The notes: generated from the letters alone by a model not told the origin. Positions 10,353 through 29,821 are shown, counted from the stretch's first letter. The stretch is DNA of 64,000 nt from Terriglobia bacterium (GCA_963666975.2 CAXVYR010000004.1:192001-256000), one strand, 5' to 3'. Numbers and translations: made by a program.

Positions 10353-10593
10353 TAGCACTTTCACAGTTCGTGTATAGTCAAAGCCGCGCGCCTTTCGGCA
10401 AGCTCCCTTCGGCTGCGCTCAGGGCAGGCAGGGCAGGCTCTCAGCAAGCGGTCTCCGAACGTTGGACGATTCAGCAGTTTGGGGGGGGACGCTCTCTGAC
10501 CCCTCGACTCTTCCCTCGGTTTCGCTCGGGACAAGGCTCGGGGCAGGCTCTCGCGGCTCAGATACTCTCTAAAACAACTGTAGAACCGGCTTA
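10353..10593. repeat. MITE/REPIN-like element, copy 1 (homologous to 16657-16866)
   Basis: Shares the CACTTTCACAGTTCG start, the AGCCGCGCGC..CAAGCG arm and an identical 64-bp block (10496-10559 = 16753-16816) with copy 2. Confidence 0.85.
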
Positions 10594-12540
10594 GAAGCCT
10601 TGGATCCTCTCCTTGAACTCCACGAATGTTGGATGGAGGAGCCTCCTCTCGTAACCTGCGGGGAGTTCTTTCTCCATGTCCTTATTCACCCAAGTAATCT
10701 TTCCTCCCAGGATCGTCATCAACACTTGAATTCTGTCAATCTGCTCCTCAGGGACTGTGAAATAGTCCTTATCGAGAACCATCAGATCACCGAAGTACCC
10801 GGGCTTCAGATCGCCAATCACATCCTCCCGCATCATGTAGCGGGCCGACCAGGCGGTAACCGTCTTCAGAGCCGTGGCCCGATCGACAGCCTCCTTGGCA
10901 TTGTACAGTTTGCCTCTGAAGTTTCGGGTAACCAGGAACTCTAACTCCCAAAAGTAGGGCACGTCATCCGTCGGGATTCTGTCCAGATTAACCGTGATCG
11001 GGATGCCGCCCTCTACGAAGCTACCGACCCGGAACATCCAGTCCTCGGTTTCCGGGCCAAACAGATCGAGCATCTCGTCACCCTGATAGATGTACAGCGG
11101 CGTCAGGGAAGGAATCATCTCGAATTCCTTCAGCCTCGCGATCTGCTCCGGTCGGACAAACAAGACGTGGTCGAAAGTAATCCTCATCTTCCGTATATCA
11201 TCCATAGTCAAGCCGCCTGCTTTCATTCCCTCAAGCGTCGCTGCCATCAGTTCGTCGATGGTCCTGTCTGCCACGCCGTGGAACTGTGCGGCTCTCACGC
11301 GGTTGGCAATCATCGCGGCCACTGCTTCCCGGAGAGGCGTGCCCGGGTCCAAGCCGCAGATCGGGAAATAATCCTTCCGGTACTTCTCCCTCACAGGCGC
11401 CATGGTGCAGAACACTCGGGCGAACGGAAGATCGCTGGCGCCCTCGCCACCCACTCCGATGTTCCAAAAAAGCTCGCTGCCGATTCCCGCAAAGTCACCG
11501 ACCAAAGGCAAGGTCAGTTTGGGATCGACGACATCTAGCACTTCACTCCGCAGTCCCATCAATTGGTGCGACCATCCTACCCGGACGGGCGCTGTTCCCT
11601 CCCGGGCCAAGTCTGCATGGGCGGAAAGGTCCGTTGTGTAGTTGACCCTTGTCCCGATCGTCGTTGCCCCGTAAGCGGCCAACTCCAGCATTACGTAATT
11701 GAGGCTTTGCTTAAACTCCTGGAAGTGCTTCTGCGCAATGACATGAATCGCCATATACAGCCGGAGCGGTACGGCCGATTTCGCGGTCCCATTCTTTTCC
11801 ACCTCGTCCAGATGACGTTTTGCCAACGGGCCAGGGTCCCTTTCTCGAGATGCTTGGATCGCCAACGTGTTGGCCGTGATCTCCAGCGGGATAAAATCTT
11901 CGGAAACGACAACCGGGTTATTCGGGACAACCCGGTCCAGCCAATCCTTATTAACGATCGGGCCGAAAAGATTTCTCCCCTGGCGGCTGACCAGCCCCAG
12001 AATCCACTTGTCGGGTCCTGGGCCCAGATCCTCGGCGGCCTTCTTCAAGTCGGCTTCGAGAGTTTCCACCATTGCTCTCGGGGGGTTATCCAGAATCGGT
12101 CCAAAGCCCCACGAGATGTCCGGCCTGAGTTCCTGGTAGCGATCGTCCGGCCCCGGGACATAGACCAACTTTACGTCCGGAATGAAAGAGTCAAACCGGA
12201 AGTAGTGTGCCCATTCGTTCGGGTGATTATGGGGATCCACAAACCCAGGCAAGACTGTCTTCCCTTTCAAATCGATCGCCAGTGTTTCCGGTCCCTTGAG
12301 CCGCAAAATCTCCTGGTCCGTGCCCACCGCTAAGACCTTGCCATCTCTAATGGCGATTGCCTGATGGAAGGAGACTATTTCCTTCATCAAAGGACCATCA
12401 AAGGTAGCTATCTTGCCGTTCCAGAGCACTGTTTCCGGATAGTGCAGGACTTCTGAGGGAATCTCTTGAGAGGACACGGGTTGAGAAAAGCCCATCAGGA
12501 ACGCAAAGACGAGAGTGAGGAAAATATTTGCTCTTTTCAT
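10591..12540 (-). CDS. Secreted Amidohydro_3 (YtcJ-like) metal-dependent hydrolase
   Basis: Signal peptide; DLKGKTVLPGFVDPHNH, FHGVAD, ITFDH, NLD, IGDLKPGYFGDLMVLDKD. Close paralog of 54781-56715. Confidence 0.88.
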   Translation of the reverse strand: MKRANIFLTLVFAFLMGFSQPVSSQEIPSEVLHYPETVLWNGKIATFDGPLMKEIVSFHQAIAIRDGKVLAVGTDQEILRLKGPETLAIDLKGKTVLPGFVDPHNHPNEWAHYFRFDSFIPDVKLVYVPGPDDRYQELRPDISWGFGPILDNPPRAMVETLEADLKKAAEDLGPGPDKWILGLVSRQGRNLFGPIVNKDWLDRVVPNNPVVVSEDFIPLEITANTLAIQASRERDPGPLAKRHLDEVEKNGTAKSAVPLRLYMAIHVIAQKHFQEFKQSLNYVMLELAAYGATTIGTRVNYTTDLSAHADLAREGTAPVRVGWSHQLMGLRSEVLDVVDPKLTLPLVGDFAGIGSELFWNIGVGGEGASDLPFARVFCTMAPVREKYRKDYFPICGLDPGTPLREAVAAMIANRVRAAQFHGVADRTIDELMAATLEGMKAGGLTMDDIRKMRITFDHVLFVRPEQIARLKEFEMIPSLTPLYIYQGDEMLDLFGPETEDWMFRVGSFVEGGIPITVNLDRIPTDDVPYFWELEFLVTRNFRGKLYNAKEAVDRATALKTVTAWSARYMMREDVIGDLKPGYFGDLMVLDKDYFTVPEEQIDRIQVLMTILGGKITWVNKDMEKELPAGYERRLLHPTFVEFKERIQGF

Positions 12541-12893: not shown

Positions 12894-14822
12894 TCAGTAA
12901 CTTGGGTGCCTGAAAACGGTCTTTCCTCCAACAGAGGTGAGCAAGGTCTGGATGGTCCCTATCTGGTTGTCGGGAATCACGAAGTAATCCTTGTCAATTA
13001 CAATAAAATCAGCCAGCTTCCCTACCTCCAGTGAGCCGATGTTTTTCTCGTTCAGCACCTGCTCAGCTCCCCAAATGGTAGCCGCCTTCATCAGGGTCAC
13101 TTTATCCAATGCTTCGCTTGGGTTGTAGGTGATCCCGTCATGGGGCATCACGCGGGTGGCAAAGAATTCCATAAAACCCCAAATGTTCCCGTCCCACTGC
13201 GGCGGGTAGTCCATGTCCTTCGACTCGGGAAGCACCTTGTGCAAGTGCGCGTCGGTGTTGAACACCACCTTCACGCCGGCGTCCGCCAGAGTCTTCACCG
13301 GGACAATCCAGGGCATGTACTGCTCGCCGTAGGCTTTCAGGAAAGCTCCGCCCTTGATGTCTCCCTGAACTTGGTACCCGTTAAAACTGGGCATGATCCC
13401 ATACCGGGCCATCTTCGCGGCCTGATCGGGGCGAAGAATCGGGTTATGTTCCGTGCTGATCCGGGCGGCCTGCACCTGCTCCAGTGTCAGGTTGCCGTTG
13501 GACATCGTCTCTTCAATCACGCTGAATAATGCGTCCATAGCCCCATCGCTATACACATGCAAGTAGCCGATCCGCAAACCGGCTTCCAGCGCCGCCCGCA
13601 CATTCCGGTAGCCTCCATACTGCTCGTAATCAGTCGCTCTGGGGTCCGAACAGGCCATGAAAAGTTCCACCGGGTTATTGGGATTCGGTTTGGCAGCGGT
13701 ACAGGTACCAACCCCTCCCTGCCCCTGAGGTCCCCATTCCCAGACTTCATTGGAAAGCCCGGCGTTCCAGATGTAATCGTTCCCGATTCCGCGGAAGTCT
13801 CCCAGGTTGCGATAAAAGAAACCGAGATCGTCCTTCTCATTGTCCCAATCGGTGCCCACAAACCACGCCCACCGGACGGGCAGCTCACCCCGCTGGTAGA
13901 GCAGATTGTGGGCTTTCATGATGGAAGGGGAGGCGTAATAATGGTTGCCAAAAGTAGTGACTCCCTGGGCCGCCAAACATTCCAGCAGTTCCCGCTTGAG
14001 AAAGTCCATCGTCTCCTCTATCCGCCCCCGGAGAAGAATGTCATATAAGACTCCGGTACGGGAGTATAGTCCCACTTTTTCGCGGCCCAGATACTTTTCC
14101 ATCTCCTGTTTGGCTTGGGTATTGTTGGCGGCGGGACCGATGGCCTCTCCGACCATCACCATGAGCGGGTTGTTCGGCGCCAGAGTGTCCAAGAATTCAC
14201 GGGTAAGCGGCGCAGATGACATTCCCCTCCCCTCCGCCCATCCCGCTTGCGGAAAGAGGGCATTGACGATCTTTCTCGATTCGACCAGGCTGTTCCCTCC
14301 AAACAGATTCACCCAAATCCACTTGCCGGGGCCCAATGCCCTGGCCCTCTGCCGGACAATCCGTTCCAGTTCCCGCAGCACCGTGGCCTGGTCATCACCC
14401 TTGGCGTAGAAGATCTGCAATTGGGGATCGTTGTACTTCTTGGCGGCAAAGTCTCCTTCCGAACCCAACCAGTGCTCCACAGCCCAGAGATGCGGATGGG
14501 TATGACCATCGATCAGGCCCGGCAGCACCCGCCGTCCCTTCGCGTCCATGACCTCGGTGTTGGGACCGGCCAGAAACCGGATCTCGTCATTCGTTCCCAA
14601 CTCCAGAATCCGGTTGTTCTTCACCGCCATGGCCTCCACCTCGGTCAACCGCGCGTCCATGGTGGAAATCTTGCCGTTGACGACAACCAGCTCCGGATAG
14701 GCATTGAGCCGGTCCAGCTTCCGCATCAAATCTGCCGCGCTTTGCCCCTGGGCCCTGCCAGGCAGGAGAAGAAAAACCAGGGCCCACAAAATCGACCCGC
14801 TCAAAAAGCTGAACCGTCTCAT
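12894..14822 (-). CDS. Secreted Amidohydro_3 (YtcJ-like) metal-dependent hydrolase
   Basis: Signal peptide; DAKGRRVLPGLIDGHTH, LHVYSD, ISTEH, NTDAH, GSLEVGKLADFIVIDKD. Confidence 0.88.
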   Translation of the reverse strand: MRRFSFLSGSILWALVFLLLPGRAQGQSAADLMRKLDRLNAYPELVVVNGKISTMDARLTEVEAMAVKNNRILELGTNDEIRFLAGPNTEVMDAKGRRVLPGLIDGHTHPHLWAVEHWLGSEGDFAAKKYNDPQLQIFYAKGDDQATVLRELERIVRQRARALGPGKWIWVNLFGGNSLVESRKIVNALFPQAGWAEGRGMSSAPLTREFLDTLAPNNPLMVMVGEAIGPAANNTQAKQEMEKYLGREKVGLYSRTGVLYDILLRGRIEETMDFLKRELLECLAAQGVTTFGNHYYASPSIMKAHNLLYQRGELPVRWAWFVGTDWDNEKDDLGFFYRNLGDFRGIGNDYIWNAGLSNEVWEWGPQGQGGVGTCTAAKPNPNNPVELFMACSDPRATDYEQYGGYRNVRAALEAGLRIGYLHVYSDGAMDALFSVIEETMSNGNLTLEQVQAARISTEHNPILRPDQAAKMARYGIMPSFNGYQVQGDIKGGAFLKAYGEQYMPWIVPVKTLADAGVKVVFNTDAHLHKVLPESKDMDYPPQWDGNIWGFMEFFATRVMPHDGITYNPSEALDKVTLMKAATIWGAEQVLNEKNIGSLEVGKLADFIVIDKDYFVIPDNQIGTIQTLLTSVGGKTVFRHPSY

Positions 14823-14970: not shown

Positions 14971-16599
14971 TTATCCGGGATCCAGTGAGCCAATTTTTCC
15001 GGTCCAGAATTGTGGAAACCAGATTCTTCCCTGCGCATCCTCTCCCAAAAACCTGGAAATGGCGTCAAAGGTGGGAATAGGATACTCGGTAAATTCCTCG
15101 GTCTCCGGATTGAACCTTGTGAGCTGGTTGCCGGAAAAATCACTCACCCAAATGTGCCCGCTTCTCGCTACCAGGAGCCCGTACGGCGTCGCATGACGAG
15201 TAGGGAACGAATACTGCGTGATTTCCCCGGTTTTCGGGTCTAGTTTTCCGAGCTTGTGTCCCAGAAAGTTTGCGAACCATACATTGTCTTCCGAATCCAC
15301 ACCCACTCCACGAACGGCAGCCATCCCGGGCACTTCGTACTCGGTGAACTTGCCCGTCGGAGGGTCCAACTTCAGAATCTTGCCCGTGCTATACAGGCTA
15401 AACCAGACCTTGTCTTGAGAATCTACGCTGATTCCGTAGGGGAATGTTTCGATCCTATCCGGAGTCCGCTCTCCCGTCGCAGTCTGGGCGGACAGGCTGG
15501 TGTCCTCCGGAATCGTTTTGGGAACCGGCACGAGGAACTCCTCGAACTCCTCCGTCCGGGGATCGAACTTGGCGACTTTATTGGCAGTTCCCCCCTCTGT
15601 AAACCAGATGTTCCCCGCCGAGTCAATGGCTGGAATGTGAGAGCCTGATGAAGGCGTCGGGCCAGGGTATTCGGTTATTTCCCCAGTTTGGGGATCGACA
15701 ACGCCCAGGCTGCCTGCTCCGCTCATTGTCACCCAGACTCTTCCATCTTCGGCGACAGCCAGGGTGTGCGGCGCTGCTTTCGGCGTGGAAATGGGATACT
15801 CCTGAAAAGTTTCCGTCTGGATATCAAACCGTCCGATCTTGTTGGAAAAATAATCATACTCTCCGAACCAGACATTCCCTTTCGAATCCACCGTCAGGCT
15901 GTGGGGCTTGGATTTGGTAGGAATCACATATTCGCGGTATGTAGCCTGCAAAGCCGCGTCGCTGATGGGTGGACGCTGAATCTGCTCTCGTGCCGGAAGT
16001 GGAGAGTCCGATCCAAAATGTTTTTCCAGAATGGAGCTGATATAAGCCAGACGGGGCGCGGGCAAGCGGGGAATAATGAAACTGCTTCCCATTCCCAAGA
16101 TCAAGCCACTCCATTGCGCCGCCGTCAGTCCTCTCCTGTCGATGATGGGATTCAAGCTATGACAACCTAAGCAGGCCGCCTCCAATGCCAGCACATCCCG
16201 ATCTTCCGGGAGGAACGTGAGCCAGTCGGTGGTGGAGATTCGGTGTACATCCCAACTATCTTTCAACCGAAAACTAGCCTCCGCGGACTGGCCCGCTTCG
16301 ATACTCTGGATCTCCGTGCCCGGGGCGAACGCCCAGGCGGAGGCAGACACCACCCAGTTGCCGGGTTCCAGTCCTGTGATCTTGTATTGCCCCGTCTGGT
16401 CGGTAAAGCGGGAGATACTTTTGTCGTCCGCTGTGACTTTTACGATTGCCCCCCGCAATGGTTTGCCCCCCTCATCGGTCACCGTACCACGAATAGAAGC
16501 ACCCATTGCGGAACCACCGGAATGATCGCGGAGCCTGACGGCGAGCCAGCCCGCGGCGATCAGAATTACAATGGCGAGAACCGTTGTCTTCGTTTTCAT
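14971..16599 (-). CDS. N-anchored protein: carboxypeptidase-regulatory-like domain, monoheme cytochrome c, and virginiamycin B lyase (Vgb)-like beta-propeller
   Basis: N-terminal hydrophobic helix; GTVTDEGGKPLRGAIV..TDQTGQY; CLGCH..W..M heme module; repeated P(H/Y)x(L/I)xVDxxGxVWF..KIGxFDPxTxxFxEY blades. Confidence 0.85.
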   Translation of the reverse strand: MKTKTTVLAIVILIAAGWLAVRLRDHSGGSAMGASIRGTVTDEGGKPLRGAIVKVTADDKSISRFTDQTGQYKITGLEPGNWVVSASAWAFAPGTEIQSIEAGQSAEASFRLKDSWDVHRISTTDWLTFLPEDRDVLALEAACLGCHSLNPIIDRRGLTAAQWSGLILGMGSSFIIPRLPAPRLAYISSILEKHFGSDSPLPAREQIQRPPISDAALQATYREYVIPTKSKPHSLTVDSKGNVWFGEYDYFSNKIGRFDIQTETFQEYPISTPKAAPHTLAVAEDGRVWVTMSGAGSLGVVDPQTGEITEYPGPTPSSGSHIPAIDSAGNIWFTEGGTANKVAKFDPRTEEFEEFLVPVPKTIPEDTSLSAQTATGERTPDRIETFPYGISVDSQDKVWFSLYSTGKILKLDPPTGKFTEYEVPGMAAVRGVGVDSEDNVWFANFLGHKLGKLDPKTGEITQYSFPTRHATPYGLLVARSGHIWVSDFSGNQLTRFNPETEEFTEYPIPTFDAISRFLGEDAQGRIWFPQFWTGKIGSLDPG

Positions 16600-16656
16600 A
16601 GACTTCTCCTTCCCTTAGGGAACTAAAGGGCCCTTCCCTTAGCGGGCATGTGCTTT

Positions 16657-16866
16657 ACATCACTTTCACAGTTCGCGTGTAGTCAGAGCCGCGCGCGTAA
16701 TCAAGCGCTCTCCGAACGTCAGGTAAGCAAGCAAAGTTTGATGGACCGCTCCCTGACCCCTCGACTCTTCCCTCGGTTTCGCTCGGGACAAGGCTCGGGG
16801 CAGGCTCTCGCGGCTCGGATGGATTCACCGACAACGCACTTTACAGCAACTCTGAAACCGGCCTAG
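16657..16866. repeat. MITE/REPIN-like element, copy 2
   Basis: See copy 1. Imperfect terminal inverted repeat TTTCACAGTT / AACTCTGAAA. Confidence 0.85.
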
Positions 16867-16946
16867 CCGGCTTCAAAGTGAAAGGTGTTTGTCGCTTGAG
16901 GAAACCTCAGCGATCAGGAGGCAGGCCGCTTCTTGCACTGCCTCGG

Positions 16947-20079: not shown

Positions 20080-20284
20080 GAGCCCGGATTTTTCACCAGC
20101 GCCGGCAGGTGCGGCTGAAATGCCGTAGCGGGCGATTTCTTTCGCCCCTGCCGGCGCTCGCTCCCCATTTGGAAACGCATACCCCCGGCCTCACGCCCGG
20201 GACTACATTCTGTCGTAGGGCACTTGCCGCGCCGCGCGAGTTAGCAAGCGGTTCATTAGACCACTTTTTCAACAAGCTGCCTAG
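20080..20284. repeat. REP-type palindromes between A5 and A4
   Basis: GCGCCGGCAGG/CCTGCCGGCGC inverted repeat; CCCGGCCTCACGCCCGGG hairpin; uninterrupted GCCGCGCGAGTTAGCAAGCGG arm; TTTTTCAACAAGCTGCCTAG end matching 5377. Confidence 0.6.
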
Positions 20285-21797: not shown

Positions 21798-23279
21798 TCA
21801 ACGACCCGGGTAATCCTCATCTTCAAAGAGCAGCTTCCCAAGGTTCGTCACTTCATCCCCGGGCCGAGGTGGCACCGGAATCTGGTCGACGAAGTTTGGG
21901 TCCAATGTGGTATCCAAAATCCGCCCGTTCTGGATCACCATGTGAATCTTCCGGGTGTTCCGTATGTCCTCCAGTGGATTAGCATCCAGGATCACGAAAT
22001 CCGCATACTTTCCCGGCTCTACGCTTCCCACCTCGTCCCATTTCCAATACTTCTCGGCCGCATGTTTCGTTGCCCCTAGAAGTGTCTGCATGGGAGTCAG
22101 CCCCGCATCCACCCAAAGCTCCATCTCCCGGTGGAGATTGACGGCGTGCATCTCGTAGGATGTAGAATCTGTCCCAACCACGACCTTCCCACCCGCATCA
22201 GCAAATTGTTTCAGGAACATCTGCAGGTTGCTGTACGCTTGCTGATAGCGGGGGGTTGTCTTGGTCCGGCCAAAAAAGTCATGGGCCAGAGGAATCCAGC
22301 GACGCGGCAACTCAGGGATCGCAGCATAAGCCGGATCCGCCAACACGGCCTCATCCTCCCTCTTATACTCCTCTGCGAAGCGGTGGGTTCCAATCCAGTA
22401 GCCGGCCAGATTGGGAGTCACTGAGGTTCCCTTCTCCATAAACAGTTTCACCAAGTCCGGGACCATCTCGGGTTTCATAAAGGAGAAAATGCCCCGCACC
22501 GTGGCGTGGTCCGCCAGGTAGCCCCGGACGGTGTATCTTTTTTGCTCCACCTCATTCAGTTTTTCCCGGTCCGTCATCGTGGCGATGGCAATGCCGCTGG
22601 CGTGCTCGATGGAGTCTATTCCCATCATGACGGCATCCCGAGCGCTGCTCGCCAGATGGGCCGTTACGGGAATCCCGTGGAAGTGCGCTTCCTCCACGAC
22701 CGCCCGCATCAGGTTGGGCCGCAATTGTTTGTAGACCTTGATCGCATCGGCGCCTGCTGCCACCTCGCGGCGGACTGCCTCTCTTGCCTCCTCCTCCGTC
22801 TCCACGAGGTGCCATCCACTGATGTACAAGGATGGCGGGGGGTTATCTATCATGTTCCCCGCTGCGTAAATCCTCGGGCCGGGGATCAGCCCTTTTTCGA
22901 TCGCCCATTTCTGAGCGAAAATCCAGGGGCTGGCGTTTCCTACGTCAATGACGGTGGTAATTCCGTAATGAAGGTAGAGTTGAGCGGCCCAGCTGGCGTA
23001 GTGCGCGTGGCCGTCGATCAGGCCGGGAATGATGTATTTGCCCCGCGCATCCACCACGCGGGCGCCCTCCGGCAATGGCTGGTTCGCGTCGCGAAGGACG
23101 CTCAGAATCTTGTTGCCGCGAGCCACAATCCGCCCGTTCTCCCTGGCATCGGCTCCGGTGCCGTCGATGAGCGTACCCCCTTGCAGGACGAGGGTCGGCG
23201 ATCCTGCGTTCTGAGCAAACGAGACCGAGGCACTGGTTAGAAATAGAACTGCTAACCGCAAAGCATTGCAAAGTTTCAT
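21798..23279 (-). CDS. Secreted amidohydrolase, tandem paralog A3 (mosaic)
   Basis: Start MKLCN; IDGHAHY, TAHLA, VGTD; catalytic body nearly identical to A2. Confidence 0.92.
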   Translation of the reverse strand: MKLCNALRLAVLFLTSASVSFAQNAGSPTLVLQGGTLIDGTGADARENGRIVARGNKILSVLRDANQPLPEGARVVDARGKYIIPGLIDGHAHYASWAAQLYLHYGITTVIDVGNASPWIFAQKWAIEKGLIPGPRIYAAGNMIDNPPPSLYISGWHLVETEEEAREAVRREVAAGADAIKVYKQLRPNLMRAVVEEAHFHGIPVTAHLASSARDAVMMGIDSIEHASGIAIATMTDREKLNEVEQKRYTVRGYLADHATVRGIFSFMKPEMVPDLVKLFMEKGTSVTPNLAGYWIGTHRFAEEYKREDEAVLADPAYAAIPELPRRWIPLAHDFFGRTKTTPRYQQAYSNLQMFLKQFADAGGKVVVGTDSTSYEMHAVNLHREMELWVDAGLTPMQTLLGATKHAAEKYWKWDEVGSVEPGKYADFVILDANPLEDIRNTRKIHMVIQNGRILDTTLDPNFVDQIPVPPRPGDEVTNLGKLLFEDEDYPGR

Positions 23280-23335: not shown

Positions 23336-24817
23336 CTAGTCTTCATCTTCAAAGAGCAACTTCCCTAGATTAGTAATTATTTCCTCGGACCAGGACGGTT
23401 GCGGAATCTGATCGACGAAGTTTGGATCCAACGTGGTATCCAAAATGCGCCCGTTTTGGATCACCATGTGAATCTTCCGGGTGTTCCGTATGTCCTCAAG
23501 TGGATTAGCGTCCAGGATCACAAAATCCGCATACTTTCCCGGCTCTACGCTTCCCACTTCGTTCCATTTCCGGTACTTCTCGGCCGCGTGTTTCGTTGCT
23601 CCCAGAAGTGTCTGCATGGGAGTCACGCCCGCATCCACCCAAAGCTCCATCTCCCGGTGGAGATTGACGGCGTGCATCTCGTAGGATGTAGAATCTGTCC
23701 CAACGACGGCCTTCCCACCCGCATCAGCAAATTGTTTCAGGAACATTTGCATGTTTCTGTACGCTTGCTGATAGCGGGGAGTTGTCTTGGTACGGCCAAA
23801 AAAGTCATGGGCCAGAGGAATCCAGCGACGCGCCAACTCAGGGACCGCAGCATAAGCTGGATCTGCCAACAAAGCTTCATCCTCCCTCTTATACTCATCG
23901 GCGAAGCGGTGGGTTCCAATCCAGTAGCCGGCCAGATTGGGAGTCACTGAGGTTCCCTTCTCCACAAAGAGTCTCACCAAATCCGGGACCAGCTCGGGTT
24001 CCATGTAGTAGAAAATTCCGCGGACAGTGGAATGTTCCGCCAGATAGCCCCGATCGGTATATCTTTTTTGCTCCACCTCATTCAGTTTTTCCCGATCAGT
24101 TGTCGTGGCGATGGCAACTCCGCTGGCGTGCTCGAGCGAGTCCACTCCCATCATGACGGCATCCCGAGCGCTGCTCGCCAGATGGGCTGTAACGGGAATT
24201 CCATGGAAGTGCGCTTCCTCAACGACAACCCGCATCAGGTTGGGCCGCAATTGTTTGTATACCTTGATCGCATCGGCGCCTGCTGCCACCTCGTGGCGGA
24301 CTGCGGCCCTGGCCTGCTCCGGCGTCTCCACGAGGTGCCAATCACTGATGTACAAGGATGGCGGGGGGTTATCTATTATGTTCCCCGCTGCGTAAATCCT
24401 TGGGCCGGGGATCAGCCCGTTTTCGATTGCCCATTGCTGAGCGAAAATCCAGGGGCTGGCGTTTCCTACGTCAACGACAGTGGTAATTCCGTAGTGAAGG
24501 TAGAGTTGGGCGGCCCAGCCAGAGTAGTGCGCGTGCCCGTCGATCAGGCCGGGAAGGACATATTTACCCCGAGCATCCACCACGCGTGCACCCTGCGGCG
24601 CCGGGCGAGCGGTTCCCCGAGAGACGCGGAGGATCTTGTTGCCGCGGACGACAATGGTCGCATCTACTACGGGGTCGGCCCCGGTACCGTCAATGAGCGT
24701 TCCCCCTTGAATGAAAAGGGTAGGCTCTCCCGCTGCCTCCTGGGCGAAAGAAGGCACGCCATTTGCGAAGAACAGGATAAAGAACAAAGCGGTGAAATGT
24801 CTCGTAATGATTATCAC
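23336..24817 (-). CDS. Secreted amidohydrolase, tandem paralog A2
   Basis: GTG start after AAGGAGG; signal peptide PSFA|Q; conserved ligands. Confidence 0.92.
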   Translation of the reverse strand: MIIITRHFTALFFILFFANGVPSFAQEAAGEPTLFIQGGTLIDGTGADPVVDATIVVRGNKILRVSRGTARPAPQGARVVDARGKYVLPGLIDGHAHYSGWAAQLYLHYGITTVVDVGNASPWIFAQQWAIENGLIPGPRIYAAGNIIDNPPPSLYISDWHLVETPEQARAAVRHEVAAGADAIKVYKQLRPNLMRVVVEEAHFHGIPVTAHLASSARDAVMMGVDSLEHASGVAIATTTDREKLNEVEQKRYTDRGYLAEHSTVRGIFYYMEPELVPDLVRLFVEKGTSVTPNLAGYWIGTHRFADEYKREDEALLADPAYAAVPELARRWIPLAHDFFGRTKTTPRYQQAYRNMQMFLKQFADAGGKAVVGTDSTSYEMHAVNLHREMELWVDAGVTPMQTLLGATKHAAEKYRKWNEVGSVEPGKYADFVILDANPLEDIRNTRKIHMVIQNGRILDTTLDPNFVDQIPQPSWSEEIITNLGKLLFEDED

Positions 24818-24923: not shown

Positions 24924-26390
24924 CTACTTTCCATACATCCACTTTTCTCGTTCGGTAATTGCCTCCTGAGTCATGGATGGTTTGGGAATCTGGTTGACAA
25001 AGTTTCCATCCAGGCGGGTATCCAGAATCCCCCCGTTTTGAATCACCATGTGAATCTTCGTAGTGTTCCGAATGTCCTCCAGCGGGTTCGCATCCAGAAT
25101 CACGAAATCCGCGTACTTCCCCGCTTCCACGCTTCCCACTTCGTTCCACTTCCGGTACTTCTCGGCTGCATACCTGGTGGCCCCCAAAAGCGCCTGCATG
25201 GGTGTGAGACCCGCATCGACCAGCAACTCCATCTCCCGGTGGAGGTTGATGCCGTACATCTCGTATGGCGTAGAGTCCGAGCCTGCCACAATCTTGCCGC
25301 CTGCCTCCGAGAACTGCTTCAGGAACGCCTGCAGGTTCTTATACCCTTGCTGATACTTGGGACCTGACTTGATCTGGCCAAAATAATCGTAGGCCAGGAA
25401 AATCCAGCGACGATCCAATTGGGGGACAAAAGCATAAGCCGGGTTTGCCAACAAGGCCCGATCCTCTTTCTCATACCGGTCCGAAAAGCGGTGGCCTCCC
25501 AGCCAGTAACACACCAGAGTTGGTGTCACCGACGTCCCCTTCTCCACAAAGAGCTGAATCAAGTCCCCATACAACTCAGGTTTCATATAGTAGAAACTTT
25601 CCGGCAGGGTGGCATGATCCACCATGTAGAACGTGTCGGCGTACCTCTTTTCTTCGATCTCCTTCAGTTTTTCCTGATCTGTCATGGTAGCGATTTGAAT
25701 GCCACTGGCGTGCTCCAGCGAGTCAATTCCCATCATGACGGCATCCCGAGCACTGATCGATAGATGGCCGGTTACGGGAATCCCATGGAGGTGGGCCTCC
25801 TCGATGACCGCCCGCAGCAGATCCGGACGCAATTTCTTATAAACTTTGATCGCATCCAAACCATCTGCCACGTTGCGTCTCACGGCAGCCCGGGCGGCCT
25901 CGGGTGTCTCGACCATAAACCCATAACCAAAGGTCGAGGGCGGACTATCAATGTGAGATCCTGCGCTGTAAATCCTCGGTCCGGGAACCAGCCCTTTGTC
26001 AATAGCCCATCTCTGTGTGACAATCCATGCGGTTGAGCTTCCCGTGTCAACAACAGTTGTGATTCCGTAGTGAAGGTATATTGGCCCGGCATAGCCGGCA
26101 TAATGGGTGTGTCCGTCAATCAGGCCGGGAATGATGTATTTGCCCCGCGCATCCACCACGCGGGCGCCTTCCGGCAATGGCTGGTTCGCGTCGCGAAGGA
26201 CGCTCAAAATCTTGTTGCCGCGAGCCACAATCCGCCCGTTCTCCCTGGCATCGGCCCCGGTGCCGTCGATGAGTGTTCCCCCTTCAATGACCAGAGCGGG
26301 GCTTCCCGCTCTCTCCCCGGCCTGCTGTGCGAAGGAGACAGCACCGGTCAGAAGAAACAGCACGAGGAACAAGGAGAGAGATTGCTTCAT
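24924..26390 (-). CDS. Secreted amidohydrolase, tandem paralog A1
   Basis: Signal peptide VSFA|Q; conserved ligands; first gene downstream of the TonB receptor. Confidence 0.92.
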   Translation of the reverse strand: MKQSLSLFLVLFLLTGAVSFAQQAGERAGSPALVIEGGTLIDGTGADARENGRIVARGNKILSVLRDANQPLPEGARVVDARGKYIIPGLIDGHTHYAGYAGPIYLHYGITTVVDTGSSTAWIVTQRWAIDKGLVPGPRIYSAGSHIDSPPSTFGYGFMVETPEAARAAVRRNVADGLDAIKVYKKLRPDLLRAVIEEAHLHGIPVTGHLSISARDAVMMGIDSLEHASGIQIATMTDQEKLKEIEEKRYADTFYMVDHATLPESFYYMKPELYGDLIQLFVEKGTSVTPTLVCYWLGGHRFSDRYEKEDRALLANPAYAFVPQLDRRWIFLAYDYFGQIKSGPKYQQGYKNLQAFLKQFSEAGGKIVAGSDSTPYEMYGINLHREMELLVDAGLTPMQALLGATRYAAEKYRKWNEVGSVEAGKYADFVILDANPLEDIRNTTKIHMVIQNGGILDTRLDGNFVNQIPKPSMTQEAITEREKWMYGK

Positions 26391-26432: not shown

Positions 26433-26469
26433 AAAGGGCTATCGGTCAGCCAGCGATCGATAGCCCTTT
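26433..26469 (-). terminator. Stem-loop after the TonB receptor (possible partial terminator or mRNA stabiliser)
   Basis: AAAGGGCTATCG ... CGATAGCCCTTT perfect 12-bp stem, ending in a short T run on the minus strand. Confidence 0.55.
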
Positions 26470-26500
26470 ACCTGAGGAATTAGCCCCGCAGCACCCAAGG

Positions 26501-29500
26501 TCAGAACACGACTTTGAGCGCAAACTGGATTTGGCGCGAGGTGGTTGATGTCGAGGCAATTACCCCTGCATTAGGCAGGCGGGTATTGGTGGCATCACCG
26601 AGAACACTGGTTTGGGGCACGTCAAAATTCGGGCGATTGAACATGTTGAAGACCTGCGATTCGAACTCCAGGCGGACTCGTTCCGTAAGCGGCGTTGCTT
26701 TTTTTATCGCAAAGTCGAAGGTGAACAAGCCCGGCCCTACCACGGTATTTCTGCCGGAATTTCCGTAGAACCCCGGCTCCTGCTGCTCGAAGGCGCAGGG
26801 ATCAAACCAACGGGTAGGGTCTTGCAGCTTCTGGCCAGCCGGTATTCCCTGGCAACCGGCAGTAACCCCGCTGGTTGGGTTATTGCTGAAGCCCGGCCTC
26901 AAGTTTGGACGATGCCCCGTATTTACGCCAGGCGCTGTCCCAGAGCGAGCCGTATCGAATTCCATCGTCACGTTGATAGGAAAACCCGAGTAGGCGTTAA
27001 TGATGGATGAGATCTGCCATCCATCCAACAGCTTTCCCGCCGCTCCTGTCAAATCGCGGCCAAAAGGCAGGTCATAGGCCACGTTGGTGTTGAAGATGTT
27101 CCTCCGGCTGAAAGTGCCGACGCTCCGGCTTGAAGCGAAATCGTGGCGATTATGCACGTTCTTTCGCGAGCTCCGGCTGGTAACCGTGTACTCCTCTGAG
27201 CTGTCATCAACATTTTTGGAAAAGGTGTAGTTGATCTGCGTTGCCAGTCCCTGGCTGAACCGTCGCTCTAAGCTCAGGATGAGCCCATGGTAGGTGGAGT
27301 GAGCGCCAGTCTGTTTGATGGAACTCTCGCCGATATTGGGGCTGAGCCGCGGGTACAGAGGATTACCCATTGCATCTGCCGGGTTAAACCACCGCCCATC
27401 CGCCAGCCTGTCGGCCGGGCGCGACCCCGCGTCCACCGGGATGACCAGATGGACACCGTTGGAACCCGCGTATCCGATGGAGAACGACATGCTGTTGCTG
27501 AGCTGTTGCTGTATGTTCAGATTGAAGTGCATCATATACGGCATATGGTTGTAAAGGTCGGATTCTATCTGGTAGGGCCCCGATATGCCAGGCACAGTCT
27601 CGTTGGGAAAATCTGCCTTGGGGAAACCCGGAACTCCAAGGCCTGCGAGGAACAACACGAACTTGCGTCCGGCCTTAGGAGGCAGGCCGGTTGTGTAATG
27701 AGCGGGGCCCAACTGGTCAAAAAAGAGACCAAAACCGCCGCGAACGGAGGTCTTGCCGGAGTTGGTGGGATCCCAGGAGATCCCGACCCGGGGAGCGAAG
27801 CAGTAGGTGCAAAAGTCTTCGTAGTACGGGCCTTTCCCGTTGTTCGGTGCAATGGTGGGTTCCATTTCTGTGAGGTCGTACCAATGGGCAAGTTTGCCAT
27901 TGGTTTCCATTGGAGCCCTCATGTTTTCGTAACGTACCCCCAGCGAGAGGGAAAGATTGGGCAGGACTCGGATGTCATCCTGAATGAAGGCCCCATACAT
28001 CGTGTGGCGCAGGCTCCTGTCCGTATCGGAAACCAGCGACTCCCCGAAAAACCCCAAAGGATTCGCCGTTAACACGTTTTCTATATTCGAAAAGAAATAC
28101 AGCCATGACGGGAACACCTTGATACTGTTGTTGTTGCGGAGACGCGAGAGCTTAAAGCCCGTTTTGATCGTATGGCGACCTTTGGTCCAATCAATAGTGT
28201 TGGCGTATTCAAAGTTGTTTAAAACCGAGTCTATGGGATTGAGGACGCCATTCTCCAACGGGGAGCCACGAACGCCCGCTGCTAACGCCGGAATATTTAG
28301 CCCGCCACCCACACCAAACGGAAACTTATCATTGAAATCCAGCGAGGGATCGAGCGGCTTCAATTGAATGGAATTCATATTGCGCGCGTTCCGGGCAAAG
28401 CCGAAGCGAGCCGTATTCAGCAACGTGGGAGAAAAGATATGGGTATGTTGAATTGTCAAAAAATGAAGTCGGATGCCCTCGTCCGCTCCAAATGTGGGCA
28501 GCAGGTAGGGCGGCAGCAACTCGGAGTCTGAAAACGTATAGCGCCCAAAGATGGTATCATTATCTGAAATATTGTAATCCAACCTTGCCGAAATAAAGTC
28601 TTCGGTCCCCGGCTGGCTTGAGCCACCTAACCATTCGCCGACGTTGGGTCCTAGCGTTCTGGGACTGTTGGGGAGAGGCAAAATGTCCAGGTAGGGCCGC
28701 ATTTTGGGATCGACCCCGACGAAGCGTTCGCCCGCTGCCGCACCCGGGCCGCATCCACCAGGACAGGCCTCATCCTCCAAGAAACCTTGCTGGGCCCGTG
28801 CAGTCAGCACCGGGGACGCGTGGCTGATGCCCAGGCGTTCCCGGAATCCTTCGTAGTTGACGTGGAAGAACAACTTGTCCTGTCGGATGGGACCGCCCAC
28901 GGCGACTCCAAACTGATTTCGTCTGAAGGGTGGGATCGGTTGCGTAGCGTCATCGAAAAAGTTCTTGGCGTCGAGTTTGTCGTTGCGGAAGTACTCGTAA
29001 ATCGATCCGTGGAGCGTGTTCGTCCCCCCCAGCGTGACTACGTTGATGACCCCGCCGGCATTTTTGCCGTATTCGGAGCTGTAGTTGTTGACTAAAACCT
29101 TGAATTCCCTGATCGTATCTACGCCCAACAGGAAGCCCTTCGCGCCGCCGGGACCGCTGTTGTATGAATTGTCAATGGCCGTTCCATCCAGCAAAAAGGT
29201 GTTCATTGACCCCCGTGCGCCCCCGACAGAAAGCTTTGTGGCTCGCCCGATCAAGAATTCTCCTCCGGACTGGGTGTTGGGGACTACCCCGGGTGTCAAC
29301 GTGGCAAGCTGCGCGAAGCTGCGGCCGTTTAACGGCAGGTCTCGCACCGCCTGGCTGGTCACCAAACCGCCCATCGTGGACATCCCGGTGGTTTCCACCA
29401 GCGGCGCCTCGCCCGTGACCGTAACGCTCTCGGTGACGTCGCCCACCTCCAGAACCAGATCGATGGTCGCTGCCTGACCTACGGTCAGCGTGATTCCCGT

Positions 29501-29821
29501 CCGGATCTGGACCTTAAATCCCGGCGAGGTGGCCTGCACCCGGTAGTTGCCCAGAGGAAGCTGTGGAGCAACATAGGTGCCACTTGCATTGCTCTCTACC
29601 GTACGGGTTGCGCCGGTATCGACATTCCTGACTTCCACAGTCGCCCCGGGAATTACCGCACCCGTCGTATCCTCTACGGTGCCCAGGATGGTGGCGGTAA
29701 TCGTCTGGGCCCGGCCTACGGAACCGAGCAGAAACACTATGCAGAGCGCCGTCAAAACCATCTTGCTAATCGCTTGTCGAACCGGGAAAGAAACCAACGT
29801 CGGGCAAAAGCTGAGCCGCAT
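26501..29821 (-). CDS. TonB-dependent receptor (Oar/Acidobacteria type with N-terminal carboxypeptidase-regulatory-like domain)
   Basis: GTVEDTTGAVIPGATV, DLPLNGRSFAQLATLTPGV, IREFKVLVNNYSSEYG, RRNQFGVAVGGPI, FAPRVGISWDP, C-terminal RQIQFALKVVF; strong RBS. Confidence 0.95.
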   Translation of the reverse strand: MRLSFCPTLVSFPVRQAISKMVLTALCIVFLLGSVGRAQTITATILGTVEDTTGAVIPGATVEVRNVDTGATRTVESNASGTYVAPQLPLGNYRVQATSPGFKVQIRTGITLTVGQAATIDLVLEVGDVTESVTVTGEAPLVETTGMSTMGGLVTSQAVRDLPLNGRSFAQLATLTPGVVPNTQSGGEFLIGRATKLSVGGARGSMNTFLLDGTAIDNSYNSGPGGAKGFLLGVDTIREFKVLVNNYSSEYGKNAGGVINVVTLGGTNTLHGSIYEYFRNDKLDAKNFFDDATQPIPPFRRNQFGVAVGGPIRQDKLFFHVNYEGFRERLGISHASPVLTARAQQGFLEDEACPGGCGPGAAAGERFVGVDPKMRPYLDILPLPNSPRTLGPNVGEWLGGSSQPGTEDFISARLDYNISDNDTIFGRYTFSDSELLPPYLLPTFGADEGIRLHFLTIQHTHIFSPTLLNTARFGFARNARNMNSIQLKPLDPSLDFNDKFPFGVGGGLNIPALAAGVRGSPLENGVLNPIDSVLNNFEYANTIDWTKGRHTIKTGFKLSRLRNNNSIKVFPSWLYFFSNIENVLTANPLGFFGESLVSDTDRSLRHTMYGAFIQDDIRVLPNLSLSLGVRYENMRAPMETNGKLAHWYDLTEMEPTIAPNNGKGPYYEDFCTYCFAPRVGISWDPTNSGKTSVRGGFGLFFDQLGPAHYTTGLPPKAGRKFVLFLAGLGVPGFPKADFPNETVPGISGPYQIESDLYNHMPYMMHFNLNIQQQLSNSMSFSIGYAGSNGVHLVIPVDAGSRPADRLADGRWFNPADAMGNPLYPRLSPNIGESSIKQTGAHSTYHGLILSLERRFSQGLATQINYTFSKNVDDSSEEYTVTSRSSRKNVHNRHDFASSRSVGTFSRRNIFNTNVAYDLPFGRDLTGAAGKLLDGWQISSIINAYSGFPINVTMEFDTARSGTAPGVNTGHRPNLRPGFSNNPTSGVTAGCQGIPAGQKLQDPTRWFDPCAFEQQEPGFYGNSGRNTVVGPGLFTFDFAIKKATPLTERVRLEFESQVFNMFNRPNFDVPQTSVLGDATNTRLPNAGVIASTSTTSRQIQFALKVVF

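What the first reader, a model, noticed from the sequence alone, without database searches (positions are those of the whole stretch)
10591..29821. PUL-like locus: TonB receptor followed by six tandem secreted amidohydrolases, a heme-Vgb protein and two more secreted amidohydrolases
Seen: ten co-oriented genes. After the outer-membrane receptor, each gene has an export signal or N-anchor, and eight are metal-dependent amidohydrolases with intact HxH/K(or E)/H/H/D ligands. No glycoside hydrolase, SusD-like protein or regulator is evident. Known: receptor-led loci in Bacteroidota and Acidobacteriota usually carry CAZymes. Inference: this is an 'amide-utilisation locus' that imports a class of N-acylated, cyclic-amide or peptide-like compounds and hydrolyses them in the periplasm with a panel of enzymes. 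I do not recognise a described system with this architecture.
Basis: partly seen in the sequence, partly recalled or inferred. Interest (0 to 1): 0.85.

Follow-up and report, generated by a model that had tools for sequence, protein, structure and literature searches.

The report
TonB transporter with amidohydrolase gene array
An uncultured Acidobacteria-type genome carries an outer-membrane transporter gene followed by six exported amide-cleaving enzyme paralogues, a haem-motif propeller protein and two more such enzymes; it is probably a nutrient-scavenging unit, one of many in this genome, and its substrate is unknown.

Summary
Ten co-oriented minus-strand genes (10591-29821) encode an Oar-class TonB-dependent transporter, six tandem COG1228-like binuclear amidohydrolases (A1-A6, 63-83% identical), a CarboxypepD_reg + CxxCH + Vgb-fold propeller protein, and two YtcJ-like amidohydrolases.

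All nine downstream proteins have signal-like N-termini. Metal ligands are intact. All 13 copy pairs tested, within this subfamily, are under purifying selection (dN/dS 0.14-0.26).

The locus is not unique. By my own gene call the 4.23 Mb genome holds 128 amidohydrolase ORFs among 3930. 15 of 42 receptor-like ORFs have one as direct neighbour, against 1.8 expected. The neighbouring receptors cluster on the receptor tree.

A congener keeps receptor-A3-A4-A5-A6-propeller-B1. Outside the genus the linkage is rare: 2 of 20 receptor loci sampled, plus two stray contigs with a receptor and three paralogues.

Metatranscriptome contigs from one study cover most of the locus and bridge three gene junctions.

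Most likely it is an uptake-plus-hydrolysis unit for N-acyl-amino-acid or peptide-type amides. Enzyme export through the Oar-type transporter is the main rival. Four literature searches found no description. The scan noted the YtcJ-type version earlier in this genome (e1-3104489) and in another genome (e1-1459696).

The parts
30362..30390 (-). Candidate sigma-70-type promoter (TTGACA-17-TAAATT, 10 of 12) about 540 nt upstream of the receptor start
   Evidence: One search found 1 site, against 0.7 expected in shuffles, so it is not significant by itself. It lies in a block of about 190 nt that is more than 90% identical between G000 and G001 while the flanks align poorly. RNA-library contigs reach at least 30168-30299.
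29822..30361 (-). Long leader; holds an insertion of about 325 nt relative to the congener G001
   Evidence: alignment; this intergenic stretch has 20 BLAST hits in the genome, so it is repeat-like. No Rfam family matches.
26501..29821 (-). Oar-class TonB-dependent transporter, 1106 aa (CarboxypepD_reg N-domain, weak Plug, OMP_b-brl_4 barrel)
   Evidence: The only orthologue is in G001 (94%); all other family hits are at most 44% identical. On the receptor tree it sits in a group where 7 of 8 receptors are amidohydrolase-adjacent.
26433..26469 (-). 12-bp hairpin followed by UUUUCC between the receptor and A1 (possible attenuator)
   Evidence: The whole-spacer fold has z = -1.39, which is not significant. 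An RNA-library contig reads through it (X15, 26256-28369).
24924..26390 (-). A1, exported COG1228-like amidohydrolase, 488 aa
   Evidence: No orthologue in the G001 array. A tract near its 5' end is 98% identical to A3, against 74% overall.
23336..24817 (-). A2, exported amidohydrolase, 493 aa; sister to the A3 pair
   Evidence: Absent from the G001 array.
21798..23279 (-). A3, exported amidohydrolase (ORF runs to 23327; probable start at the internal ATG behind AAGGAG)
   Evidence: 90% orthologue in G001.
20281..21753 (-). A4, exported amidohydrolase (ORF runs to 21801; probable internal start)
   Evidence: 92% orthologue in G001. Its 5' 200 nt are about 95% identical to A3.
18517..19980 (-). 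A5, lipoprotein-type amidohydrolase (lipobox LASC), 487 aa
   Evidence: AF2 model pLDDT 92.5. Foldseek best hits are 2qs8, 2p9b, 3mtw and 4ub9. It shares a 285-nt identical run with copy D1 on another contig.
16947..18401 (-). A6, exported amidohydrolase (ORF runs to 18443; probable internal start)
   Evidence: 92% orthologue in G001.
16600..16946 (.). Intergenic spacer filled by a dispersed REP/MITE-like repeat
   Evidence: 47 BLAST hits in the genome. It shares 121 nt at 84% with the spacer below B2.
14971..16599 (-). N-anchored CarboxypepD_reg + CxxCH helical domain + Vgb-fold seven-bladed propeller, 542 aa
   Evidence: 94% orthologue in G001.
12894..14822 (-). B1, exported YtcJ-like (Amidohydro_3) amidohydrolase, 642 aa
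   Evidence: 95% orthologue in G001.
10591..12540 (-). B2, exported YtcJ-like amidohydrolase, 649 aa
   Evidence: No orthologue found at the matching place in G001.
10289..10590 (.). REP/MITE-like repeat at the 3' end of the locus
   Evidence: 73 BLAST hits in the genome.

Best explanation
This is a lineage-specific nutrient-scavenging module.

Proposed mechanism:
[quoted passage not shown] The most likely class is small peptides or N-acylated amino acids and similar conjugates.
- The exported binuclear metallo-amidohydrolases encoded behind it cleave these in the periplasm or at the cell surface and release amino acids.
- The six A paralogues are diverged copies of one COG1228-like subfamily. 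Each is kept under purifying selection. They are shuffled by gene conversion and probably cover different side chains or acyl groups.
- The two YtcJ-like enzymes and the haem-motif propeller add further steps of unknown chemistry.

Shown: gene order, domains, ligands, signal-like N-termini, selection on each copy, non-random pairing in this genome, synteny in a congener, and presence in RNA libraries.

Inferred: direction of transport, cell compartment, substrate class, and co-transcription.
For: - Domains and intact ligands.
- 9 of 9 downstream proteins have signal-like N-termini and A5 has a lipobox.
- dN/dS is 0.14-0.26 in 13 of 13 pairs tested.
- Genome-wide pairing: 15 of 42 receptor-like ORFs have an amidohydrolase next to them, against a mean of 1.8 and a maximum of 7 in 2000 random placements. 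9 of 42 have one among the first two co-oriented downstream genes.
- The 'amidohydrolase-adjacent' label needs 7 changes on the tree of 39 receptors, against 12.9 in shuffles (0 of 500 as low). The window's receptor lies in a group with 7 of 8 adjacent (FastTree).
- G001 (92-95% orthologues) keeps receptor-A3-A4-A5-A6-propeller-B1.
- Three metatranscriptome runs hold 99-100% identical contigs over 24-28 of 30 bins. Contigs bridge the receptor/A1, A1/A2 and A5/A6 junctions.
- Spacers are short (44-115 nt) within A1-A4 and at A5/A6. The long spacers A4/A5 and A6/propeller are filled with dispersed repeats; B1/B2 (353 nt) has only its self-hit.
- The characterised structural neighbours of A5 are Xaa-Pro dipeptidases, a Lys/Arg carboxypeptidase and ochratoxin amidases.
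[quoted passage not shown] I take that to be the 3icj/3igh group that B1 and B2 hit (PMC13081902, passages read).
- Independent receptor-plus-three-paralogue contigs exist: L119 and L060.
Against: - No substrate, location or transport direction is shown.
- The A proteins are only 19-25% identical to any characterised enzyme. They score 137-149 bits against the NCBIfam prolidase equivalog, whose cut-off is 500.
- The best sequence hits in the PDB are phenylurea and molinate hydrolases, which act on xenobiotics.
- The linkage is not general. 10 of 78 genome loci of the wider family hold a receptor, and 4 of 24 metagenome loci of at least 10 kb do. 2 of 20 receptor loci in other genera of the same family have an adjacent amidohydrolase.
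- Three spacers of 300-353 nt could hold internal promoters. Consensus promoter and terminator scans are no better than shuffles.
- RNA evidence comes from assembled contigs of one study. No DNA-contamination control (a silent stretch) could be laid, and contigs do not prove one transcript.
- Kin share labels, so the tree clustering may reflect segmental duplication rather than function.
- At least 2 of the 42 'receptors' are Vgb-like proteins that were caught through the shared N-domain.
Confidence: 0.5

Rival explanations
1. Export instead of import. The Oar-class transporter moves the signal-peptide-bearing amidohydrolases from the periplasm to the cell surface or the medium, as Oar does for the protease PopC in Myxococcus xanthus. 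The enzymes then attack extracellular substrates and the products enter by other routes.
For: - The receptor has the Oar architecture: CarboxypepD_reg N-domain plus plug and barrel.
- PMC6434023 (abstract and passages read) shows that Oar and the Ton system are required for PopC secretion from the periplasm.
- All cargo candidates are exported across the inner membrane.
- The 600-aa relatives of the A family carry a C-terminal TIG/IPT domain (PF01833). From my own knowledge, this domain is common in surface proteins.
- The A subfamily ends in a conserved EKLLFG-type tail behind a hypervariable linker. This could be a sorting signal.
- The Bilophila metallo-hydrolases are secreted enzymes.
Against: - Only one TonB-dependent transporter has been shown to act in secretion, and its cargo lacks a signal peptide, unlike these proteins.
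- One receptor would have to handle nine different cargo proteins from three folds.
- Nothing here tests location.
Confidence: 0.17
2. Defence or detoxification. The module takes up or meets toxic amides, ureas, thiocarbamates or cyclic depsipeptide antibiotics and inactivates them. The Vgb-fold protein would open rings as streptogramin B lyase does, and the amidohydrolases would cleave the linear products.
For: - The best PDB sequence hits of A5 are phenylurea hydrolase B (6.9e-32) and molinate hydrolase. Ochratoxin amidases are structural neighbours.
- The propeller superposes on Vgb with TM 0.92 normalised to the target and rmsd 1.8 A.
- 4 of 9 Vgb-like paralogues in this genome sit next to an amidohydrolase.
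Against: - 128 amidohydrolase ORFs and 9 Vgb-like paralogues in one genome fit nutrition better than resistance.
- The Vgb-like protein scores 123-130 bits against the VgbA/VgbB models, whose cut-off is 600.
- It carries a haem motif and an N-domain that Vgb lacks.
- The register of Vgb's catalytic EPH motif could not be fixed because the blades align in several registers.
Confidence: 0.1
3. No functional coupling. The amidohydrolase families expand by tandem and segmental duplication, and happen to sit beside the equally numerous receptor genes. The genes are transcribed and used independently.
For: - Dispersed repeats lie in the spacers, an IS1595-type transposase lies 2 kb below the locus, and gene-conversion tracts between copies show a recombination-prone region.
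- A second array of three A-type copies (44640-49182) has no receptor.
- The linkage is rare outside the genus.
Against: - The excess of adjacency is eightfold over random placement.
- It concentrates in particular receptor clades.
- Order and orientation are conserved in G001.
- RNA-library contigs bridge the receptor/A1 junction.
- Receptor-led triplets recur on unrelated contigs L119 and L060.
Confidence: 0.15

Closest known systems
Receptor-led utilisation loci: SusC/SusD polysaccharide utilisation loci of Bacteroidota and the TonB-receptor 'CUT' loci of Xanthomonas (recalled from my own knowledge, not from a call)
   Same: An outer-membrane TonB-dependent transporter gene leads a co-oriented set of exported hydrolases. 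Paralogous modules are amplified within one genome.
   Different: There is no SusD-like lipoprotein, no CAZyme and no sensor or regulator. The hydrolases are metal-dependent amidohydrolases. The receptor is of the Oar class, not the SusC class.
COG1228 branch of the amidohydrolase superfamily: Xaa-Pro dipeptidases (2qs8, 3feq/3n2c), Lys/Arg carboxypeptidase Cc2672 (3mtw), ochratoxin amidases (4c5y, 8ihq), phenylurea hydrolase B (4whb) and molinate hydrolase (4ub9)
   Same: Same fold (Foldseek E 1e-29 to 1e-23) and the same HxH / Lys / His / His / Asp ligand set.
   Different: Identity is 19-25%. TM normalised to the query is only 0.60-0.64, because the query is about 60-80 residues longer than most neighbours. 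The proteins are exported. They fall far below the NCBIfam equivalog cut-off. No member of this subfamily carries a functional name.
Oar of Myxococcus xanthus (PMC6434023)
   Same: A TonB-dependent transporter with an N-terminal CarboxypepD_reg domain.
   Different: Oar is encoded with its own Ton system and exports a protease that has no signal peptide. Here the neighbours are signal-peptide enzymes, and no orthology to Oar was tested.
Metal-dependent bile salt hydrolases of Bilophila wadsworthia (preprint PMC13081902; passages read)
   Same: Their closest structural homologues include an uncharacterized Pyrococcus furiosus hydrolase, which I take to be the 3icj/3igh group that B1 and B2 hit. 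They are exported and encoded as co-located paralogues. They cleave the amide bond of glycine- and taurine-conjugated bile acids.
   Different: The bridging residue in B1/B2 and in 79 of 84 own-genome paralogues is Asp/Glu, not carboxylated Lys. Those enzymes are 945 aa and lie beside a type II secretion system, not a TonB receptor. I made no direct sequence comparison with them.
Virginiamycin B lyase Vgb (2z2n, 2qc5)
   Same: Seven-bladed propeller, TM 0.92 normalised to the target, rmsd 1.8 A, 25% identity.
   Different: This protein has an added N-terminal anchor, a CarboxypepD_reg sandwich and a helical CxxCH domain. It is below the VgbA/VgbB cut-offs. The catalytic register is unresolved.
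Receptor + YtcJ-type amidohydrolase arrays noted earlier by this scan (e1-3104489 in the same genome; e1-1459696 in another genome)
   Same: Same theme: a TonB receptor beside tandem exported amidohydrolase paralogues. I saw the seven-gene array myself at C2:321103.
   Different: The present array is built from a different amidohydrolase family (Amidohydro_1, COG1228-like). It also includes the haem-motif propeller.

Membership tests
TonB-dependent transporter, Oar-like class | Outer-membrane beta-barrel domain of TonB-dependent receptors | tested here: met
   PF25183 3e-174 over residues 263-1099; PF00593 9e-9.
TonB-dependent transporter, Oar-like class | Plug domain | tested here: inconclusive
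   PF07715 scores 20.6 bits, below the 23.9 cut-off.
TonB-dependent transporter, Oar-like class | N-terminal CarboxypepD_reg domain | tested here: met
   PF13620 3.5e-21, residues 44-125. The architecture is described in PMC6434023.
TonB-dependent transporter, Oar-like class | Role in protein secretion | not testable with these tools
   Needs fractionation and a knockout.
Amidohydrolase superfamily, COG1228-like binuclear subtype (A1-A6) | (beta/alpha)8 barrel with the small beta-sandwich domain | tested here: met
   AF2 pLDDT 92.5. Foldseek hits 2qs8, 3mtw, 3feq and 4c5y at E 1e-29 to 1e-23.
Amidohydrolase superfamily, COG1228-like binuclear subtype (A1-A6) | HxH, bridging Lys, His, His, Asp ligands | tested here: met
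   Invariant in 15 of 15 subfamily copies. H91, H93 and H226 are invariant, and K181, H208 and D371 are conserved in at least 90% of a 58-sequence alignment.
Xaa-Pro dipeptidase equivalog (NCBIfam NF051886) | Score above the curated cut-off (500 bits) | tested here: not met
   136.6-149.2 bits for A1-A6.
YtcJ-like amidohydrolases (Pfam Amidohydro_3; B1, B2) | Pfam PF07969 above the gathering score | tested here: met
   110.1 and 154.5 bits against a cut-off of 29.7. Weak PDB hits to 3igh and 3icj.
YtcJ-like amidohydrolases (Pfam Amidohydro_3; B1, B2) | Carboxylated Lys bridging the two metals (as KCX373 in the Bilophila enzyme) | tested here: not met
   No conserved Lys between the HxH and the next His ligand. 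Asp/Glu occupies the expected spacing (B2 E356, B1 D349; D 75 + E 4 of 84). This placement rests on spacing, not on a structure.
Virginiamycin B lyase | Seven-bladed propeller fold | tested here: met
   TM 0.92 normalised to the target, rmsd 1.8 A, to 2z2n.
Virginiamycin B lyase | NCBIfam VgbA/VgbB score (cut-off 600) | tested here: not met
   123.2 and 129.8 bits.
Virginiamycin B lyase | Catalytic His/Glu of the last blades (H270 is seen as the H-to-A difference between the 2z2n and 2z2p sequences) | tested here: inconclusive
   The blades align in several registers. The first two blades of the query carry PH motifs like Vgb's last two, but without the Glu.
c-type cytochrome | CxxCH haem-attachment motif in a helical domain | tested here: met
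   CLGCH at 143-147. C143, C146 and H147 are invariant in 61 sequences. The motif is present in 73 of 77 homologues. A helical domain spans 118-217 in the model.
c-type cytochrome | Match to a curated cytochrome c family | tested here: not met
   No Pfam family at E up to 5 for residues 100-221.
Bacteroidota-type polysaccharide utilisation locus | SusD-like lipoprotein next to the receptor, and CAZymes | tested here: not met
   No such family.

The most novel reading that the evidence does not exclude
'Amide utilisation loci': a modular system that parallels polysaccharide utilisation loci. In it, a sub-lineage of Oar-class TonB transporters has co-diversified with arrays of exported metallo-amidohydrolases drawn from two unrelated-looking subfamilies. 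A conserved haem-c/Vgb-fold propeller supplies a ring-opening or redox step. Together these would give this acidobacterial genus a broad-spectrum route for harvesting nitrogen and carbon from N-acylated, peptidic or cyclic amide compounds. Gene conversion between copies would act as the diversity generator.
Probability: 0.25. Interest if true: 0.8.

Novelty: new variant of a known kind. Interest (0 to 1): 0.58.

Why it matters
If the coupling is functional, TonB-receptor-led utilisation loci are not limited to glycans. A group of uncultured Acidobacteria would devote about 3% of its genes to exported amide hydrolases wired to outer-membrane transporters.

That points to a concrete and testable route for turnover of organic nitrogen, and to a large reservoir of uncharacterised amidases. 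Both enzyme families here have relatives used for mycotoxin, herbicide and N-acyl-amino-acid chemistry.

The locus also offers a natural test of whether Oar-class transporters import substrates or export enzymes.

Tried and rejected
- A single-protein scan of genome contigs with A5 found no relative. The alignment scan and the metagenome scan found only relatives of at most 49% and 40% identity. The close subfamily could therefore be followed only in G000, G001 and unnamed database clusters.
- Two promoter/terminator scan calls exceeded the size limit and were resent smaller. Over the locus, promoter and terminator counts were no better than shuffles: 7 against 9.0, and 20 against 21.7.
- Rfam found nothing in the window, nor in the leader at E up to 1.
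- The fold of the receptor/A1 spacer was not significant (z = -1.39).
- Fixing the register of Vgb's catalytic residues failed because of the repeated blades.
- Pfam did not name the CxxCH domain.
- The two Raushel-laboratory papers on COG1228 prolidases are not held. The substrate-carboxylate-binding residues could therefore not be checked in A1-A6.
- A 'quick' IQ-TREE run of the receptors did not finish. The FastTree result is used instead.
- Parts of the locus without RNA-contig cover (2-6 of 30 bins per run) are not interpreted. Depth was not used to rank genes. No silent control stretch could be laid because read laying allows one call only.
- No complex prediction was run. I make no binding claim, and the receptor exceeds the size limit.
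- I considered an assembly artefact and rejected it. The copies are 63-83% identical at protein level and distinct. DNA runs from four studies hold at least 0.69 of the sampled words (one of these may be the source sample). One such run covers all 30 bins.

Full report
WHAT IS THERE

Ten ORFs on the minus strand fill 10591-29821 exactly as reported. Pfam gives the following, in order of transcription.
- A 1106-aa TonB-dependent receptor: CarboxypepD_reg N-domain, a weak Plug match (20.6 bits, cut-off 23.9) and an OMP_b-brl_4 barrel (3e-174).
- Six Amidohydro_1 proteins of 487-509 aa, named A1-A6 here.
- A 542-aa protein with CarboxypepD_reg and Vgb_lyase matches.
- Two Amidohydro_3 proteins of 642 and 649 aa, named B1 and B2.

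Each gene is preceded by a GGAG-type Shine-Dalgarno. Its position shows that A3, A4 and A6 probably start at internal ATGs. GC content is even across the locus.

By a crude rule of my own, 9 of 9 downstream proteins have a signal-like N-terminus. That rule flags 399 of 2805 ORFs of at least 150 aa. A5 has a lipobox. No glycoside hydrolase, SusD-like or regulator family appears in these genes or in the 36 other window ORFs scanned.

THE A ENZYMES

A1-A6 are 63-83% identical to each other. H91, H93, K181, H208, H226 and D371 (A5 numbering) are invariant in 15 of 15 subfamily copies.

The AlphaFold model of A5 is confident (pLDDT 92.5). Its Foldseek neighbours are:
- Xaa-Pro dipeptidases (2qs8, 2p9b, 3feq/3n2c);
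- the Lys/Arg carboxypeptidase Cc2672 (3mtw);
- molinate hydrolase and phenylurea hydrolase B;
- ochratoxin amidases.

These hits have 19-25% identity and TM 0.60-0.64 normalised to the query. By sequence, the best PDB hits are phenylurea hydrolase B (6.9e-32) and molinate hydrolase.

The best NCBIfam model is the Caulobacter Xaa-Pro dipeptidase equivalog, but at 137-149 bits against a cut-off of 500. The proteins therefore belong to the COG1228-like branch of the superfamily and are not members of any characterised equivalog.

In the 5.8-billion-protein collection, about 19 clusters reach 56% identity or more. The only names given are 'amidohydrolase family protein' and 'imidazolonepropionase-like'.

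A listing of papers on COG1228 (titles and abstracts seen) shows characterised members acting on dipeptides, N-acyl amino acids, ochratoxin A and a leucinyl intermediate. All of these are amides whose leaving group is an amino acid. This is the basis for my substrate-class guess. It is an inference.

THE B ENZYMES

B1 and B2 hit the uncharacterised Pyrococcus YtcJ-type structures weakly (3igh 1.5e-11, 3icj).

In an alignment of 84 own-genome paralogues of 560-670 aa, the HxH pair, two further His and the Asp are invariant or nearly so. At the spacing where a bridging Lys is expected, Asp or Glu is found instead (75 D + 4 E of 84; B1 D349, B2 E356).

A 2026 preprint (PMC13081902, passages read) reports that secreted, co-located enzymes of Bilophila are metal-dependent bile-salt hydrolases, meaning amidases of N-acyl glycine/taurine conjugates. 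It gives an uncharacterized Pyrococcus furiosus hydrolase as their closest structural homologue. I take that to be the fold group that B1 and B2 hit.

THE PROPELLER PROTEIN

The model (pLDDT 93.3) shows four parts:
- an N-terminal helix (residues 2-23);
- a beta-sandwich (34-112);
- a helical domain (118-217) holding CLGCH at 143-147;
- a seven-bladed propeller that superposes on virginiamycin B lyase (TM 0.92 normalised to the target, rmsd 1.8 A, 25% identity).

The CxxCH motif is present in 8 of 9 paralogues in this genome and in 73 of 77 database homologues of 500-600 aa. It is invariant in a 61-sequence alignment. Pfam names no cytochrome family there.

The protein is far below the VgbA/VgbB cut-offs (123-130 bits against 600). 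The register of Vgb's catalytic motif could not be fixed. 'Haem-Vgb' is thus a fair description of the motifs and the fold, not of a function.

THE LOCUS IN ITS GENOME

The window alone holds eight further amidohydrolase genes, including a second tandem array of three A-type copies at 44640-49182 with no receptor.

In the 4.23 Mb genome (98.9% complete, 4 contigs), 11 places encode A-type copies of at least 63% identity. With my own simple gene call (3930 ORFs), phmmer finds 128 amidohydrolase ORFs, 42 receptor-like ORFs over 600 aa, and 9 Vgb-like proteins at E below 1e-20. At least 2 of the 42 'receptors' are really Vgb-like proteins caught through the shared N-domain.

Of the 42, 15 have an amidohydrolase as immediate neighbour, against a mean of 1.8 (maximum 7) in 2000 random placements. 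9 have one among the first two co-oriented downstream genes.

On a FastTree of the 39 receptors over 750 aa, the 'adjacent' label needs 7 changes against 12.9 in shuffles (0 of 500 as low). The window's receptor lies in a group in which 7 of 8 are adjacent. Related copies share labels, so this shows clustering and not co-evolution.

69% of the amidohydrolase ORFs of at least 350 aa (82 of 118) pass the signal rule.

HISTORY

G001, of the same genus, has receptor (94%), A3, A4, A5, A6 (90-92%), propeller (94%) and B1 (95%) in the same order. It lacks A1, A2 and B2 there.

On the tree, A2 is sister to the A3 pair, A1 stands alone, and the deeper forks are unresolved. Most copies therefore predate the split of the two genomes.

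dN/dS is 0.14-0.26 for 13 of 13 pairs.

There are mosaic tracts:
- A1/A3 are 98% identical over about 150 nt, against 74% overall.
- A3/A4 are about 95% identical over the first 200 nt, against 73% overall.
- A5 shares a 285-nt identical run with a copy on another contig.

The most variable mature block is residues 141-160.

HOW GENERAL IS THE LINKAGE?

- Among 41 genomes of the class, copies above 60% identity occur only in G000 and G001.
- The receptor has one orthologue (G001). All other hits in 14 family genomes are at most 44% identical.
- Of 20 receptor loci sampled from five genomes of other genera of the family, 2 have an adjacent amidohydrolase. Two others have Vgb-like genes beside the receptor.
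- Of 78 loci of the wider A family in species-representative genomes, 10 hold a receptor. Most record titles there read Acidobacteria, Acidobacteriota or Terriglobia. Of the 53 loci of at least 10 kb, 8 hold a receptor and 2 hold three A-type genes.
- Of 24 metagenome loci of at least 10 kb (out of 80 returned), 4 hold a receptor.
- Two unrelated contigs repeat the theme. L119 has a receptor followed at 16 nt by three co-oriented A-type genes. L060 has a divergent receptor plus three.

The pairing is thus a strong trait of this genus and an occasional one elsewhere.

EXPRESSION AND TRANSCRIPTION UNITS

Spacers are 110, 106, 56, 44, 300, 115, 347, 148 and 353 nt. Two long spacers (A6/propeller and below B2), and partly A4/A5, consist of a dispersed repeat with 13-73 BLAST hits in the genome.

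A 12-bp hairpin follows the receptor gene. Consensus scans over the locus are no better than shuffles.

About 540 nt upstream of the receptor lies a 10-of-12 sigma-70-like site. It sits inside a block of about 190 nt that is more than 90% conserved with G001, while the rest of the leader is not. G000 carries an extra 325 nt or so. No Rfam family matches.

Three metatranscriptome runs of one study hold 99-100% identical contigs over 28, 26 and 24 of 30 bins. Contigs bridge the receptor/A1 junction (26256-28369), the A1/A2 junction (24776-25154, in two runs) and the A5/A6 junction (17919-18753). They also reach 350-480 nt upstream of the receptor start.

Contigs cannot show a single transcript or the strand, DNA carry-over was not controlled, and one study is one observation.

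INTERPRETATION

The evidence fits best a receptor-led scavenging module for amide-linked compounds, with a panel of diverged exported hydrolases (confidence 0.5).

The main rival is that the Oar-class transporter exports the enzymes, as Oar does for PopC (PMC6434023). Detoxification of xenobiotic or antibiotic amides, and mere co-location, remain possible.

LITERATURE AND EARLIER NOTES

Four full-text searches found no paper describing TonB-receptor/amidohydrolase arrays. The library lacks most subscription journals.

The scan itself noted the YtcJ-type version earlier, in this genome (e1-3104489) and in another genome (e1-1459696). I confirmed the former's seven-gene array at C2:321103. Note e1-3052116 gave me the lead to the Oar paper.

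VERDICT

The feature is real and non-random, and it appears in RNA libraries. It is a new variant of receptor-led utilisation loci rather than a new kind of system. Its function is still inferred.

Noticed in passing
window 44640-49182 (+): A second tandem array of three A-type amidohydrolases (C1-C3, 63-73% identical to A1-A6) with no receptor beside it. An Asparaginase-domain protein of 606 aa and a GMC oxidoreductase follow.
   Followed up: partly
window 16600-16946, 10289-10590, 19981-20280 and 29822-30688: The long intergenic spacers carry a dispersed REP/MITE-like repeat family, with 47, 73, 13 and 20 BLAST hits in the genome. A short-read DNA run shows a false joint between two copies (10428 to 16784).
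   Followed up: partly
window 7913-8575 (+): An IS1595-type (ISXO2-like) transposase gene lies 2 kb below the locus. An 82% identical stretch, matched on the opposite-strand frame, lies near another A-type copy and receptor on contig C3 (L008).
   Followed up: partly
C-termini of A1-A6 (for example window 18517-18560 for A5): The subfamily ends in a conserved (E/G)K-L-L-F-(G/P/E) tail behind a hypervariable linker (entropy 2.3 at A5 residues 471-480). It is modelled as a terminal helix. It may be a sorting or docking signal; its role is unknown.
   Followed up: no
window 30200-30400 (-): A non-coding block of about 190 nt is more than 90% conserved with G001. It holds TTGACA-17-TAAATT and an imperfect ATCACAGC ... 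GCTGTGAT inverted repeat just upstream of it.
   Followed up: partly
own genome, e.g. C4:2227273-2231210 and C4:2137236-2138522; L089 and L093 in G003: CxxCH + Vgb-fold propeller paralogues recur next to amidohydrolases (4 of 9 in this genome). In another genus they lie next to TonB receptors (VVT.V in L093). This widespread family (hundreds of database homologues) has no known function.
   Followed up: partly
L003, L009 and L119 (relatives of about 40% identity): The 600-aa relatives of the A family carry a C-terminal TIG/IPT domain (PF01833) and also occur in tandem arrays. One 13-kb contig of G002 holds five to six copies.
   Followed up: partly
window 30689-44169: The neighbourhood looks like a catabolic island: luciferase-like monooxygenase, PF06684 'AA_synth', another amidohydrolase, an aldehyde dehydrogenase, a molybdopterin oxidoreductase, ABC transporter parts and a UbiD-type decarboxylase. 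The gene just upstream of the receptor differs in G001, so these genes are probably not part of the module.
   Followed up: no
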